A DNA stretch of 63,732 bases, counting the filler, from Octopus bimaculoides (taxonomy: Eukaryota), in NCBI RefSeq assembly GCF_001194135.2. It is 7 parts of 7 records of this genome, joined end to end, with 100 filler letters (N's around TTAATTAATTAA, not from the genome) between each part and the next. Parts side by side here need not be neighbours in the genome. Positions count along the whole stretch, not along the records: positions 1 to 20,845 come from NC_069003.1; positions 20,946 to 29,877 come from NC_068997.1; positions 29,978 to 37,812 come from NC_068986.1; positions 37,913 to 50,864 come from NC_069004.1; positions 50,965 to 57,947 come from NC_068983.1; positions 58,048 to 62,083 come from NC_068985.1; positions 62,184 to 63,732 come from NW_026313303.1. One strand, written 5' to 3'. The notes beneath the pieces are model-generated. The model was given only the letters and a program-made list of their open reading frames with translations, had not been told where the DNA came from and searched no databases. Within the stretch, counting starts at the first letter, position 1; each line of letters begins with the position of its first letter. The position numbers were made by a program, and so were the translations under genes. This document shows, one piece after another, positions 2,170-63,732 of this stretch.

Positions 2170-2555
2170 CTTATTTTCGTATACATACGCTGTTTTCTTC
2201 CAAGGAATCTAATGCTCTTAGCTTATTTTTTCCTTGGGGCTGGCCAGATTGGAGCAATCTCAAGTATAACCAGCCGAAATTGTAAAGATAATCTGGAACT
2301 CGATTGAGGAGAGAAAACTCCGAATCACCTGTCCTTGTTTTCCTTGTATCGTCTGTCTTGGCGATTTTTTCTTCCTCCGTCTTCCCTTCTTTGGAGGTTA
2401 ATATATTTCCGACGAAGAGTTCCGCTCGAAACGTCAAGTTCTCTTTCTTTCCTTTCCTGAGCGTCCAGTAACACAATATTTGTATCACATCCTCGCGTTG
2501 TTGTTTTTTGTTGCTTTTTTGTCGTTTTTCTTGTTTGAACTCACTATATATATAT
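2170..2555 (+). mobile_element. PLE 3' end / pseudo-LTR remnant
   Basis: Contains an HHR-like motif and shares gaagag..gctcgaaa and ttcctgagcgt motifs with the tandem PLE-like ends at 48945-49692. Confidence 0.55.
2405..2439 (+). ncRNA. Minimal type I hammerhead ribozyme motif (variant core CCGACGA)
   Basis: attt-CCGACGA-a-gagt/tcc/gctc-GAAAC-GTC-aagt; ACGT palindromic stem III. Confidence 0.65.
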
Positions 2556-4341
2556 ATGGTACTACTGTTGAACAAGCGTCTAACGCTATAATCCACTGAC
2601 GTACAGATGTCTCTTTATGGTGACCTCACTCCTCATTGCACCTACTGAGGGGTGCTATGGTAATGGAAGAGTCGCAACGTGTGTAAACAAAATATTTCTG
2701 AGCGCACGTTTATACAAATGAAATATACACTGCAGGAGTCATATTTAGCTCCTTGTTGTGGTTGACCGTAAACAAGGACCGACTACGGGGGAGTTTCTTG
2801 TGATTGAATCACTCCATTTTGGGGAGACCATTGCACTCCCAAATCATTAACGACAAAGATCCTACCTGTCTTCCTAAAAGCAAAACCACGTCCCAATCTA
2901 TCAGACTACCAACCTACCTTTCGCGCCTTAAACAGCCACACTATTTACAACATTATAACATGGAACTACTTAGTATAAAACATCTGTACAGAACGACTGT
3001 CACGATCTATTAATAGAGCCACACATGATGTCTTTCATGGAAGTCATGGTCATTTTCTGTTTCTATCTATCTATCTATCTATCAAAGGAATAACACAGCT
3101 ACCACCAATTTCACGACGCCGACCACGACGAACACCACCACCACCATCACCCCACCACCACCACCGCCGCCGCTGCCACCNNNNNNNNNNNNNNNNNNNN
3201 NNNNNNNNNNNNNNNNNNNNNNNNNNNNNNNNNNNNNNNNNNNNNNNNNNNNNNNNNNNNNNNNNNNNNNNNNNNNNNNNNNNNNNNNNNNNNNNNNNNN
3301 NNNNNNNNNNNNNNNNNNNNNNNNNNNNNNNNNNNNNNNNNNNNNNNNNNNNNNNNNNNNNNNNNNNNNNNNNNNNNNNNNNNNNNNNNNNNNNNNNNNN
3401 NNNNNNNNNNNNNNNNNNNNNNNNNNNNNNNNNNNNNNNNNNNNNNNNNNNNNNNNNNNNNNNNNNNNNNNNNNNNNNNNNNNNNNNNNNNNNNNNNNNN
3501 NNNNNNNNNNNNNNNNNNNNNNNNNNNNNNNNNNNNNNNNNNNNNNNNNNNNNNNNNNNNNNNNNNNNNNNNNNNNNNNNNNNNNNNNNNNNNNNNNNNN
3601 NNNNNNNNNNNNNNNNNNNNNNNNNNNNNNNNNNNNNNNNNNNNNNNNNNNNNNNNNNNNNNNNNNNNNNNNNNNNNNNNNNNNNNNNNNNNNNNNNNNN
3701 NNNNNNNNNNNNNNNNNNNNNNNNNNNNNNNNNNNNNNNNNNNNNNNNNNNNNNNNNNNNNNNNNNNNNNNNNNNNNNNNNNNNNNNNNNNNNNNNNNNN
3801 NNNNNNNNNNNNATATATATATATAAATATACATACATGCATACATACATACGTACATACATATATATATATATATATATATATATATGTACATACATAT
3901 ACACACATATACACGTATGTGGGTGTATGTGTATATATACACACATATACACATCTGTGGGTGTATGTGTATATATATATATATGTGTGTGTATATGTAT
4001 GTGTGTATGTATGTTTGTATGTGTGTATGTGTGTATATATATGTGTGTGTGTGTGTGTGTGTCTACGTGTGTATGTATGTATCTCTGGAACAGAGGCGCT
4101 GAGTATCAGAGTTTGGTCTTAATTATTTTTAATTATTCATTAGTCAAAAGAGTAGCTGTAGCAGCAACAGTAACAGCAGCAGCTGCAGCAGCTGCAGAAG
4201 CAGCAGCGACTGCAGAGACAGCAGCAGTGCACGAAGGAGAGATGGCACCGGCAGCAACAATAGAAAGAATAAACATGCTACAAATATTTGGAGCAAAACT
4301 GATAACGGCCAAAAATCAAAAAACAAGAAAATATATATTAT

Positions 4342-4725
4342 GTTGTGTGGTAAGGAGCTTGCATCCTAACCACATGGTTCCGGGTTCAGTTCCACTACAT
4401 GAGGCCTTTCTTAAGTATCTCCTATTATAGCCTCGGTCCGACCAAAGCCTTGTGAGTGGATTTGATAGTGGGAAATTAAAAGAAGCCCGACTATATATAT
4501 ATCCGTGTATGTGTTTTTGTGTCTGTTTGTCCCTACCCACCGCTTGACAACAGGTGTTGGTGTGTTTACGTCCCCGTAAGTTAGCGGTTCGGCAAAAGAG
4601 ATTGACAGAATCGGTATCAGTCTCAAAAAATGTGCTGGAGTCGATTCATTCGACTAACAACCCCTCAAGGCGGTGCTTCCGCATTGCTTCAGTCAAATGG
4701 CTGAAACAATTAAAAAATTAAAGAT
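4342..4725 (+). mobile_element. tRNA-type SINE, family A
   Basis: A/B-box-like head (tgtggtaag..ggttcagttcc), body aagccttgtgagtggattt, internal (TA/TG)n, tail ..gtcaaatggctgaaacaa; many copies in window. Confidence 0.85.
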
Positions 4726-5139
4726 TAAAGATATATAAATAAATGAAACAGGAAAAGCGACAAAACAAGAGAACAAACAACCGCAATAATAATGGTTTCT
4801 ATTTTTGCACTAGGCCTGCAGTATTTGAGAGGCGGCGCAAGGCGACTACATCGACCCCAGGGTTTAATTAGTACTTATGTTATCGACCCCGAAACGTGAG
4901 TGTTGTTTATTTATTTATTGTTGTTTGATTTTGAGATTATAAACCCTGACTTTAAATGCCTTTCCTTCTAAGCTAACTCCTCACCTTACTTCTCTTCTGT
5001 TTTAGCTGTTACAAAGAAATGTCGCGAAGCATTTTGTCGGACGCGTTAACAATATTATGCATATATATATCTATGCACTCTACTCAGCATATTGAGTTCT
5101 ATACCATGTAAAATATATTATTGATATATCTTACCACAG

Positions 5140-61086: not shown

Positions 61087-61328
61087 GAAAACCATACATA
61101 TATTTTATATAAGATGAAAGCAATCCTATTTACTGGAAAACATAACATTGCACGAAATGAAATTTGTGAATAGTTTTTCTCGATCTCGAAATTTATTTCG
61201 CCACACATACTCATGAAGATATGATGTAAATAAATCACTACTAGTTCCATATTGTCACCAAAGTTACTTCTTGGAGAGTATCCATCGCCCTTCCATCGTC
61301 TGTTTATGGATGCTGTCAGTGTTTAGAT

Positions 61329-61560
61329 AAATGGTTCTCAACCAAGGTCCTAGTGATCCCTGGGAATCCATATAAAATTTTGGAGGCTCCGTGTAAGTAA
61401 AATAGTAGATTAGGTGTCCATGTAATACTTAGGGATCCAGATGTATTTATTGTACAAAACAACTAAGTTCCTTTCTCAATGCTTTACGCAGTTCATCATG
61501 TCTCCGGACACTAAAACGTGTCCTCTCATAGTGTTGTTGCAAACCTACACAAGTGAAGGA
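61329..61560 (+). mobile_element. hAT-like MITE fragment
   Basis: tggttctcaacc terminus; homologous to 58657-58850. Confidence 0.55.
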
Positions 61561-63435
61561 AGGAGAAACATTTATAACCACTAGCATAGACGGGGTGGGT
61601 AGGGGCGGTCCGACCTGGGCGGCACTTTTAGGTCTGCTGTGGGCAATATGTGTTTTTTTGTGGGGTCCGGGGGCGACAAACGGAAGGGCGACCCCGGGCG
61701 CGAAATTTTTTTCCCACGAGTGTTCCAGACCCCAGTTATGAACTCATTTGCATACAGCCAATCAGAGCTCGACTATCAAACTAATTTATGAGCACATAAC
61801 AAGTGATTGGTGATAAGATAAGGTCACTTGGGTAAGGAATGACCATGCTTCTTTTCTCTTTTAATAATGCTTGTTATTCTTGTTTCAACCATGGCTATAG
61901 TAGAAGACACTTGCCCAAGGTGCCACGCAGTGGGACTGAACCCGGAACCATGTGCTTCGTAAGCAAGCTACTTGCCACACAGCCACTCCTTTCAGTATGA
62001 ATTTTTAAGAAATTATCTTAAAATTACAAATTATGCTCCGGTTCAACGATCGATTTGATAAGCACCAGCATATTGGGTGGGAANNNNNNNNNNNNNNNNN
62101 NNNNNNNNNNNNNNNNNNNNNNNNNNNTTAATTAATTAANNNNNNNNNNNNNNNNNNNNNNNNNNNNNNNNNNNNNNNNNNNNCGATTTGCTCGACTAAA
62201 AGGCGGTGCTCCAGCATGGCCGCATTCAAATGATTGAAACAAGTAAGATAGTAAAATAGTATATGAATATTTCTTGTAGTCCTTATAATATTTAGTATAT
62301 ATCATGATATTACGTCCTTTCGAACTTATATGCACATAAAATCATGGAAATATAAAACTATTGGCTTACTCTAATTTATTTTCTTCTGTAAAAGTAAGTA
62401 AAATTCTGATAATTAATTTATTTAATTATATATTATTACCATTTTTATGTAAGGAATTGTATAGTTCATAATAAACGTAAATGTATACATTTGTTTAACA
62501 TCGGCGTATTTAGAGGAAACTTTTGAATTAATGAATCGTTGATTAAAACCTTTTTTAATGAATTTCGTGTATGAATAAAATATATCCTTATTTATTCTTT
62601 CATAATATTTTATAGAAATTTCAAAAAATATATTTCCTACTCCACCATAAATTCTTAACATATTTTATAGATTTTATTATATAGAATTTATATAATAAAA
62701 ATTGGCAATAATTATTTTAGATTAAAATATCTTTAGAGTAATATTATTAAAGATGCATAAGAACATTTTATGAGCGTTGTAATTGTTTTGTTTATTTCAT
62801 TTATTATATCGATTTGAATTTTTTAAAAATTATATTTATTGTATTTCAAAACTATCAACGCTCACGCTTGTTAACAGAGGTACATTTTAGATCATTCTAT
62901 TTTATGATTTCCTAGTCCTTGCATGAAAATTCAGTCTACTTTTTTAGAAAAATATTACCCTGACGAGATTCATATACATAAATGTGGATTTTTTTTTATT
63001 AATTCACTGGTGTGTATGAATCGAAACAAATTGCGAGATATATATTTGCTTTTATTATTTGTTATATTACATTATATTATATCTTTGTATAGCATAATTG
63101 TACTATATTACAATGTTAATAAATTTATAATATGTCAATCGTATTTCTCTATTTCCTTTATTATTTATATATTGAAATTATACCAGTTTAAGTTTTGATT
63201 TTTTTCTCTACTATATTGTGGTATTAAACTGAAGAACGAATAAAAATTGGACGTTCTCCATCCCTTTAAAGGAAATTGTTTTTTCCTTAGATTGAATAAT
63301 TATAATGATAATAATAATAATAATGATAATAATAATAATAATAATAATAATAATAATAATAATAATAATAATAATAATAATAATAATAATAATAACAACA
63401 ACAACAACAATAATAATAACACATACACACACATA

Positions 63436-63732
63436 TAGAAATAATACATTTCTAAATCTCTCAGAGAGATTTATGCAGTAGCGATACGATAAGATAGTTG
63501 TATGCTGTCAACTTACTGTGACAGTCCCATGAAGGGAATAGTACTACTTCTATTTAGCCCTAAGAAGCAGTACCGCTTCCTGTCGGCCTTGACACATTTC
63601 CCGTGTCCTTATGTTTACAAGGGGGAGACAAGCAACTCTACATAGTTAAGCCTGCATCCAGAGACTAGTTTCTGAGTCTATTCTCGTCATCAGTCTGGAG
63701 TAGCATGGCTTGCTAGTCGGATATGCCTGTCA
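63436..63732 (-). mobile_element. HHR-bearing short repeat with conserved terminus
   Basis: Terminus shared with 14713 and 35454; HHR at 63657-63699. Confidence 0.7.
63657..63699 (-). ncRNA. Intact minimal type I hammerhead ribozyme
   Basis: Minus strand: tccaga-CTGATGA-c-gag/aataga/ctc-a-GAAAC-ta-GTC-tctgga; perfect 6-bp stem I, ACTAGT palindrome. Confidence 0.8.

What the first reader, a model, noticed from the sequence alone, without database searches (positions are those of the whole stretch)
2405..63699. Very high density of minimal hammerhead ribozyme motifs across the window
Seen: at least 12 motifs with stem I - CUGANGA(-like) - stem II - GAAA - short, usually palindromic stem III - NUH - stem I. 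They lie at 2405(+), 5753(-), 12441(+), 14583(-), 17638(+), 25779(-), 35679(+), 38090(+), 49059(+), 52880(-), 55667(+), 60338(+) and 63657(-). Half-motifs occur at ~11000, ~13020, ~14835, ~35645 and ~49566. The stems differ completely between motifs while pairing is retained, so several independent families are involved. Established: minimal type I HHRs with palindromic stem III occur in PLE pseudo-LTRs and can cleave as dimers. Inference: this genome carries a very large HHR-bearing retroelement population that an ORF-based annotation misses.
Basis: partly seen in the sequence, partly recalled or inferred. Interest (0 to 1): 0.75.

Follow-up and report, generated by a model that had tools for sequence, protein, structure and literature searches.

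The report
Retrotransposon hammerheads, one core letter rewritten
These self-cutting-RNA (hammerhead) motifs are real but mostly decayed copies of about a dozen repeat families, likely tail ends of Penelope-type jumping genes and their small non-coding parasites, a known kind; the one oddity is a very common family that spread with a normally conserved core letter changed, and whether it still cuts is untested.

Summary
All 18 listed sites are real type I hammerhead (HHR) remnants of dispersed repeats, not chance. Only 3 are intact, several were misparsed, and the stems are not all independent. The window is not unusually dense in intact motifs: 3 seen against 1.5 expected (P=0.19). The genome-wide rate is 21 in 823 kb, about 50,000 motifs. 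Three kinds occur: ends of Hydra-type Penelope-like elements (PLEs), one with its broken RT-endonuclease gene inside the window; about 350-nt circularly permuted non-LTR retrozymes; and minimal PLE HHRs. All three kinds are published, as is the mismatch at the base of helix II, and the scan already reported them on other DNA of this likely octopus genome. Less ordinary is family F (49059, 49566), the commonest in my sample. It has U at core position 6 in 1,773 exact copies against 41 with A, while its other core and helix sites stay invariant across copies (0 of 23 polymorphic, flanks 20 of 75). I found no A6U hammerhead in print, but could not read the main variant survey. No cleavage or RNA circle is shown. 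New members of a known kind; interest 0.38.

The parts
2390..2450 (+). Family A minimal HHR (core with C at position 4, fixed in the family) near the 3' end of a short dispersed repeat
   Evidence: 243 exact copies with C4 against 20 with U4
5739..5845 (-). Family N HHR, long helix II, true core at 5824-5830 with G8 mutated; 3' end of the PLE remnant upstream
   Evidence: homologues lie in RT-bearing loci L129, L135, L167
6790..9290 (-). Broken RT and C-terminal endonuclease gene of a Hydra-type PLE (ends approximate), about 1 kb upstream of the family N HHR
   Evidence: 9,003 first-look candidates in G000; tblastn hits 6881-8908
10980..11081 (-). Family M HHR, full length but decayed (G8 and G12 changed), long branched helix II with C.A at its base in the family
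12432..12502 (+). Retrozyme family B HHR, G8 mutated
13002..13054 (+). Family M 3' half; the core half is deleted
14576..14643 (-). HHR of a relative of retrozyme family C (75% to the C unit), C3/A8 mismatch
14790..14853 (-). Family P HHR, complete, intact core at 14846, odd-length palindromic helix III; base pair of helix II lost in this copy
   Evidence: continuous with a Hydra-type endonuclease in L292
14873..14928 (+). Inverted truncated copy of family P (PLE-type fold-back junction)
17626..17700 (+). Retrozyme family B HHR, intact core, helix I and III each broken once; part of a 355-nt unit
25776..25855 (-). Family E HHR, intact, U.U at base of helix II; young family (94-97% identity)
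35495..35890 (.). Fold-back of a B/J-related retrozyme: decayed HHR near 35679(+) and inverted stump near 35645(-)
38076..38139 (+). Family G HHR, U at position 3 opposite G8 in the family, helix I broken in this copy; old family
49047..49105 (+). Family F minimal HHR with U at core position 6; first copy of a partial tandem; helix III palindrome broken in this copy
49557..49603 (+). Family F second copy of the partial tandem, decayed
52877..52949 (-). Family D HHR (C4 in the family, C.A at base of a long helix II), one further core change in this copy
   Evidence: continuous with a Hydra-type endonuclease in L061 and L064
55657..55744 (+). Retrozyme family J HHR, decayed; 364-nt unit
60328..60399 (+). 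Family K HHR, intact core, one mismatch in the helix III palindrome; shares helices I and III with D
63643..63720 (-). Retrozyme family C HHR, intact, C.A at base of helix II; about 350-nt unit

Best explanation
The motifs are type I hammerhead folds carried by about a dozen dispersed repeat families, and most window copies are decayed; the families are likely the 3' ends (pseudo-LTRs) of Penelope-like retrotransposons plus non-coding retrozymes of about 350 nt that are predicted to borrow the Penelope enzymes. Shown: the families, their copy abundance, the continuity of four families with PLE coding sequence, and the permuted 347-364-nt units of B, C and J. Inferred: PLE reverse transcription starts near the pseudo-LTR and usually stops early, so thousands of short HHR-bearing stumps, partial tandems and inverted stumps are left at AT microsatellites and then decay. 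Inferred: in source copies the HHR cuts tandem transcripts slowly, probably as a dimer through the palindromic helix III or with help from the element's protein, and retrozyme monomers would be ligated into circles. Cutting is likely not rate-limiting for insertion, which would explain how families with weakened cores (C4 in A and D, U6 in F, U3 opposite G8 in G) could amplify.
For: Profile hits at 17 window places, none in shuffles. RT-EN remnant followed by its HHR inside the window. Family D continuous with an endonuclease in 2 loci, P in 1, and F continuous with a DKG-bearing ORF start in 2. Inverted and tandem partner copies in many loci; ends at TA or other microsatellites seen by eye, not tallied. 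B and C units are collinear at 63% (E 8e-18) with changed helices and kept core; C folds as a circle at z = -8.1 and -6.6. A sister subfamily of C has two compensatory helix I changes (L306; the same four changes in about 40% of RNA reads). Literature: PMC4209133, PMC7229834, PMC8557442 File S2, PMC11167929.
Against: No cleavage or circle was observed: 621-854 RNA reads per run lie on both strands of family C, 78-80% run on into unrelated sequence, and none pile up at the cut site. No retrozyme locus (50 B and C loci) was continuous with a PLE ORF, so the helper link is by analogy. Families A, E, G, K, M were not tied to an ORF. The B and J copies tested fold weakly as circles (sense z = -1.2 to -2.6). 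No long tandem arrays were seen, unlike coral retrozymes. Clade names rest on motifs, not on a tree.
Confidence: 0.85

Rival explanations
1. The fold is kept mainly as a binding or folding signal for the PLE protein, and catalysis is dispensable or lost in several families.
For: Core changes fixed in abundant families: U6 1,773 against A6 41, C4 243 against U4 20. Mutations in the CUGA turn gave low activity in a systematic scan (PMC9901934 passages). Catalytic mutants of a lizard PLE HHR did not affect insertion in vitro (PMC11167929).
Against: In F the catalytic G8 and G12 and all other core sites stay invariant while N7 and the cut-site base vary only within the bases a hammerhead allows. 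[quoted passage not shown] U4C and A6C variants retain low activity (PMC3088659).
Confidence: 0.25
2. All HHR-bearing pieces are truncated ends of autonomous PLEs; there is no separate retrozyme that replicates through a circle.
For: No circle evidence in RNA; B, C and J show PLE-type inverted stumps and mostly single units; family F also looked like a short tandem unit until longer copies revealed an ORF.
Against: In B, C and J the sequence after the end of one unit is the start of the same unit with a fixed period of 347-364 nt, and no shared flank extends beyond it in 62 loci, whereas F junctions vary.
Confidence: 0.15
3. The motifs are chance matches in an AT-rich, microsatellite-rich genome.
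For: A loose descriptor (two core mismatches) gives 1-7 hits per shuffled window against 10 real; 9 of 13 main sites fail the intact-motif test.
Against: 21 intact hits in 823 kb against 0-2 in 10 shuffles; multi-copy families with compensatory helices; exact pattern counts of 263 and 1,773 with 0 for reversed controls.
Confidence: 0.01

Closest known systems
Hydra-clade Penelope-like elements and their hammerheads (Craig et al. 2021, PMC8557442, section 11 and Files S1-S2, which list Hydra-1_Obim from an octopus)
   Same: C-terminal endonuclease, HHR near the 3' end, TA-repeat targets, palindromic helix III of odd or even length, an extra nucleotide on both sides of the helix II base (U.U in many Hydra families; C.A in a Chara PLE).
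   Different: Longer helix II inserts here (53 nt in N, about 60 nt in M) and C4 fixed in D; no tree was built, and I did not compare with the Hydra-1_Obim sequence.
Metazoan non-LTR retrozymes (Cervera and de la Pena 2020, PMC7229834; Li et al. 2026 preprint 10.64898/2026.07.22.740005)
   Same: Non-coding units of about 350 nt with one type I HHR, GC below 50%, self-paired circular fold (family C), co-occurrence with PLEs; mussel units are 350-390 bp; an axolotl family has a U.U mismatch at the helix II base.
   Different: Here mostly single or partial units with inverted stumps, C.A mismatch, 4-8-nt palindromic helix III; expression as circles not shown.
Minimal PLE hammerheads (Cervera and de la Pena 2014, PMC4209133; Lunse et al. 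2017, not readable here)
   Same: Families A and F: short helix I, one unpaired base after A9, G-C at the helix II base, 2-nt palindromic helix III, thousands of dispersed single copies.
   Different: Core changes fixed family-wide (C4, U6); the 2014 paper reports only the U3-A8 swap in the parts I read.
Poseidon element PAc of the green anole (Frangieh et al. 2024, PMC11167929)
   Same: Pseudo-LTR HHR; no RNA-seq reads begin or end at the cut site, as here.
   Different: There the HHR was tested: protein-assisted and not needed for insertion in vitro. Nothing was tested here.

Membership tests
Type I hammerhead ribozyme | Core CUGANGA, GAAA, UH around helices I-III | tested here: met
   Met by 3 window copies and by the majority sequence of B, C, E, J, M, N; not met letter for letter by A, D, K (C4), F (U6), G (U3 with G8)
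Type I hammerhead ribozyme | Paired G10.1-C11.1 directly next to the core | tested here: not met
   B, C, D, M have C.A and E has U.U there; canonical descriptor 0 hits. Published for Hydra HHRs
Type I hammerhead ribozyme | Helices kept by compensatory change | tested here: met
   B against C, C sister subfamily L298/L306, RNA read variants
Type I hammerhead ribozyme | Site-specific self-cleavage | not testable with these tools
   No read-end pile-up at the site in 3 RNA runs for C and 1 for F; such libraries also missed it for an active PLE HHR
Rfam hammerhead families | Score at or above gathering threshold | tested here: not met
   0 matches in the window
Endonuclease-bearing Penelope-like element | RT followed by GIY-YIG endonuclease with the HHR downstream on the same strand | tested here: met
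   Window 9290 to 5739(-); D, P, N in loci; not shown for A, E, G, K, M
Endonuclease-bearing Penelope-like element | Partial tandems and inverted 5'-truncated copies | tested here: met
Hydra clade of PLEs | RWK and DKT motifs, CxCx5C linker, endonuclease without CCHH | tested here: inconclusive
   Window copy is decayed (RRK, CxCx4C); related pieces in L114 and L028 show RWQ, DKT and CxCx5C; no Pfam hit
Hydra clade of PLEs | Placement in the RT phylogeny | not tested
   No tree built
Canonical (DKG-type) PLE, for family F | GxKF/Y-like and DKG motifs at the ORF start following the pseudo-LTR | tested here: met
   L361 and L345; RT core and endonuclease not reached; 'Neptune-like' is recalled, not tested
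Non-LTR retrozyme | Non-coding unit of 170-400 nt, one HHR, head-to-tail or permuted copies | tested here: met
   B 355, C about 350, J 364 nt
Non-LTR retrozyme | Stable self-paired circular fold | tested here: inconclusive
   C z = -8.1, -6.6; B -1.2, -1.7; J -2.6 on single aged copies
Non-LTR retrozyme | Accumulation as circular RNA | tested here: inconclusive
   Reads look like read-through from dispersed copies; 'goes back 347-348' joints fit tandem DNA as well as circles

The most novel reading that the evidence does not exclude
Family F is a natural hammerhead with A6 replaced by U that has been kept under purifying selection through at least three sub-lineages and four related organisms while becoming one of the commonest PLE ends in the genome. 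Either PLE protein rescues a core that should be crippled, or the fold serves a non-cutting role. With the C4 and U3 families, the genome would be a natural mutational series that makes the open question of what PLE hammerheads are for directly testable.
Probability: 0.3. Interest if true: 0.62.

Novelty: new member of a known kind. Interest (0 to 1): 0.38.

Why it matters
If the estimate holds, this genome carries about 50,000 intact-core hammerheads (one per 39 kb) in well over a dozen families that Rfam does not detect, denser than the 126,247 motifs reported for the 28-Gb axolotl genome, although the descriptors differ. That is useful for repeat annotation but is more of a known thing. The part that could move the field is family F: the role of PLE hammerheads is still called unknown (PMC7761336 passages), and a high-copy family with a fixed core substitution but an otherwise frozen fold offers a matched natural pair (U6 against the rare A6 sister) for a direct test.

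Tried and rejected
Rfam by E-value returned only microsatellite-driven miRNA matches among the 150 of 344 rows shown. The canonical descriptor found no intact motif. Reading the window's family-profile density (17 hits, 2.0 expected) as a hotspot was rejected: the profiles were trained on the window copies' nearest relatives, and 14 of the 21 intact motifs in the random sample belong to families not in the window list. One random stretch (L201) was dropped because it is the window's own third stretch. The C.A base of helix II as a new variant was rejected: the layout is in PMC8557442 File S2. The window RT as a Naiad was rejected: the endonuclease is C-terminal. The GIY-YIG family near L047 was tested as parent of the window families: it has its own U3-A8 HHR and no continuity with them. 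Family F as a 480-nt retrozyme was rejected: junctions vary and longer copies lead into an ORF. Sequencing-run search: no RNA holder listed. Pfam on 58 of 186 long reading frames gave no PLE-specific hit in the window. Lunse et al. 2017 was not held. Chromosomes beyond C18 and small contigs were not sampled, the F element was not followed to its RT core, and insertion targets were not tallied.
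Full report
Setting. The window is a pack of 7 stretches, AT-rich and full of microsatellites, from a 2.34-Gb assembly. A TTAGGG-type array, the genome size and the Hydra-type PLEs make an octopus likely; this is inferred, and earlier scan notes say the same.

Are the motifs there? Rfam gives 0 matches at gathering score and a canonical descriptor gives 0 intact motifs. 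Inspection showed why: many motifs carry an extra nucleotide on one or both sides of the helix II base. With a descriptor relaxed for this, for long helix II and for odd palindromes, 3 window motifs pass with an intact core (14846-, 25838-, 63693-) against 0-1 in 10 block shuffles; with one core mismatch and one palindrome mismatch allowed, 6 pass against 0-1. The descriptor was tuned on these motifs, so the independent test is the random sample below. Homology settles the rest: profiles trained on other genomic copies, self loci excluded, hit 17 places in the window, covering 16 of the 18 named sites, and none in 8 shuffled windows. The last two sites lie in a fold-back 63-66% identical to retrozyme units. 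Of the 13 main sites, 2 are intact, 2 have one defect and 9 are decayed. The core at 5753 was misplaced by 42 nt and the 'half-motif' at 14835 is a whole motif.

How dense? I took 100 stretches of 10 kb at fixed round positions on contigs C1-C18 and dropped one that is the window's own third stretch. The other 99 (822,937 non-N bases) hold 21 intact-core motifs against 0-2 in 10 shuffles: one per 39 kb, about 50,000 genome-wide. The Poisson range is 31,000-76,000, too narrow because 4 hits share one stretch. The window's 3 match the 1.5 expected (P=0.19). Fourteen of the 21 belong to families not in the window list, so family diversity exceeds what the window shows. Published counts: over 6,000 in a coral, about 5,000 in a mussel, 126,247 in the axolotl (PMC7229834, parts 1-3 of 6 read), about 9,000 minimal motifs in Xenopus tropicalis (PMC4209133, parts 1-2 of 4). 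The genome is at the high end, but the descriptors differ.

Kind 1, Hydra-type PLE ends (N, P, D; probably K, M, E). The minus strand from about 9290 to 6790 is a broken RT followed by a C-terminal endonuclease, then about 1 kb of 3' sequence, the 5753 HHR and a microsatellite. Its RT piece has 9,003 first-look candidates in the genome, and homologues of the same HHR lie in 3 other RT loci. Family D is continuous with such an endonuclease in L061 and L064 and family P in L292. K and M share helix III, and much of helix I, with D; E has a U.U helix II base. PMC8557442 (passages, section 11, supplement parts 1-2 of 59) describes this clade, its TA-repeat targets and an octopus member, and its File S2 already lists HHRs with an extra base on both sides of helix II. 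My clade assignment rests on motifs, not on a tree.

Kind 2, retrozymes (B, C, J, the 14583 and 35679 copies). In B and C loci the sequence after one unit's end is the unit's start, with periods of 355 and about 350 nt, and no flank is shared beyond it; J has 364 nt. B and C align over the unit at 63% (E 8e-18) with different helices around the same core and the same C.A mismatch. C folds as a circle far better than shuffles (z -8.1, -6.6); B and J do not clearly (sense z -1.2 to -2.6). C has 263 exact core-and-helix-II copies, and a sister subfamily has two compensatory helix I changes. This matches non-LTR retrozymes (PMC7229834), which a 2026 preprint derives from PLE pseudo-LTRs (parts 1-3 of 5 read; its supplements were closed). 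Three RNA runs of one study, of an organism that may not be the species of G000, gave 621-854 reads of 11.5-12.9 million on family C, on both strands, 78-80% running on into other sequence, with no start or end pile-up at the cut site. That shows read-through transcription only.

Kind 3, minimal PLE hammerheads (A, F) and G. These fit the 2014 minimal motif but have family-wide core changes. A has C4 in 243 exact copies against 20 with U4; D also has C4, with the CpG decay products expected if C4 is ancestral. G has U3 opposite G8. F has U6 in 1,773 exact copies against 41 with A6, is the commonest profiled family in the random sample (8 of 28 hits, 7 with U6), and is the pseudo-LTR of a PLE whose ORF start carries the DKG motif (L361, L345). 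Across 65 F copies, 0 of 23 non-CpG core and helix sites have a second allele at 10% or more, against 20 of 75 flank sites; inside the motif, CpG sites aside, only N7 and the cut-site base vary (Fisher p=0.003). Copies are not independent and the flanks are pyrimidine-rich, so this is suggestive. U6 also dominates in contigs or reads of four organisms, with three states of N7 (19 rows were not shown). Natural U4C and A6C variants have low activity (PMC3088659, passages and section 8), and CUGA-turn mutants were weak in a full scan (PMC9901934 passages). Searches for an A6U hammerhead gave no hit that describes one (search listings only), and searches for octopus or cephalopod retrozymes gave no dedicated paper. 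Lunse et al. 2017, the main survey of such variants, could not be read (seen only as a citation in PMC6765202 passages), so novelty is uncertain.

How it likely works. PLE protein nicks AT-rich DNA and starts reverse transcription inside its RNA near the pseudo-LTR (PMC11167929, parts 1-2 of 4). Early stops leave HHR-bearing stumps, tandems and inverted stumps, which is what the window holds (inferred). Retrozymes would use the same route from small units or circles (inferred by analogy). In that paper the HHR cleaved only with protein, catalytic mutants still inserted, and RNA-seq showed no ends at the cut site. This makes my negative RNA result uninformative and offers a reason why weakened cores can spread. 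The frozen fold of F argues that slow or assisted cutting, or binding, is still selected.

Verdict. The system is a set of new members of known kinds, found before by this scan on other pieces of the genome. Interest 0.38, carried mainly by the genome-wide density and by family F.

Noticed in passing
L218, L300, L304 (3 copies), L312, L319: A further abundant minimal HHR family with an intact canonical core gives 7 of the 21 intact hits in the random sample and is not among the window's listed motifs.
   Followed up: no
L256-L285: A young PLE family with a zinc-finger-like linker and GIY-YIG endonuclease (8,800 first-look candidates) carries a U3-A8 hammerhead in its 3' end; a sister (L279) has U3 opposite G8.
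   Followed up: partly
L189:7284, L281:3133: Another retrozyme-shaped HHR family (6-bp helix I, 6-nt loop 2, 6-nt palindrome) also has C at core position 4.
   Followed up: no
   Followed up: no
window 13950-14450(-): Broken reading frames just downstream of the 14583 motif that resemble another PLE RT C-terminal region (recalled resemblance; no Pfam hit).
   Followed up: no
window 4344-4738, 6168-6593, 16422-16871, 34908-35302, 42487-42741, 58048-58234 and others: A very frequent SINE-like repeat of about 400 nt with at least a dozen copies; a second family at 7882-8335, 30643-30854, 47079-47527, 56040-56805. One copy of each interrupts the Hydra-type PLE.
   Followed up: no
window 18154-19081(+), 20390-20845(-), 26582-27186(+), 50131-50592(+), 15122-15637(-): Fragments of LINE-type reverse transcriptases (Pfam RVT_1 at 18154, zf-RVT at 26582) and a transposase-like frame at 15122 (recalled resemblance).
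   Followed up: no
window 59493-59548: Interstitial array of 9 telomere-type hexamers.
   Followed up: no
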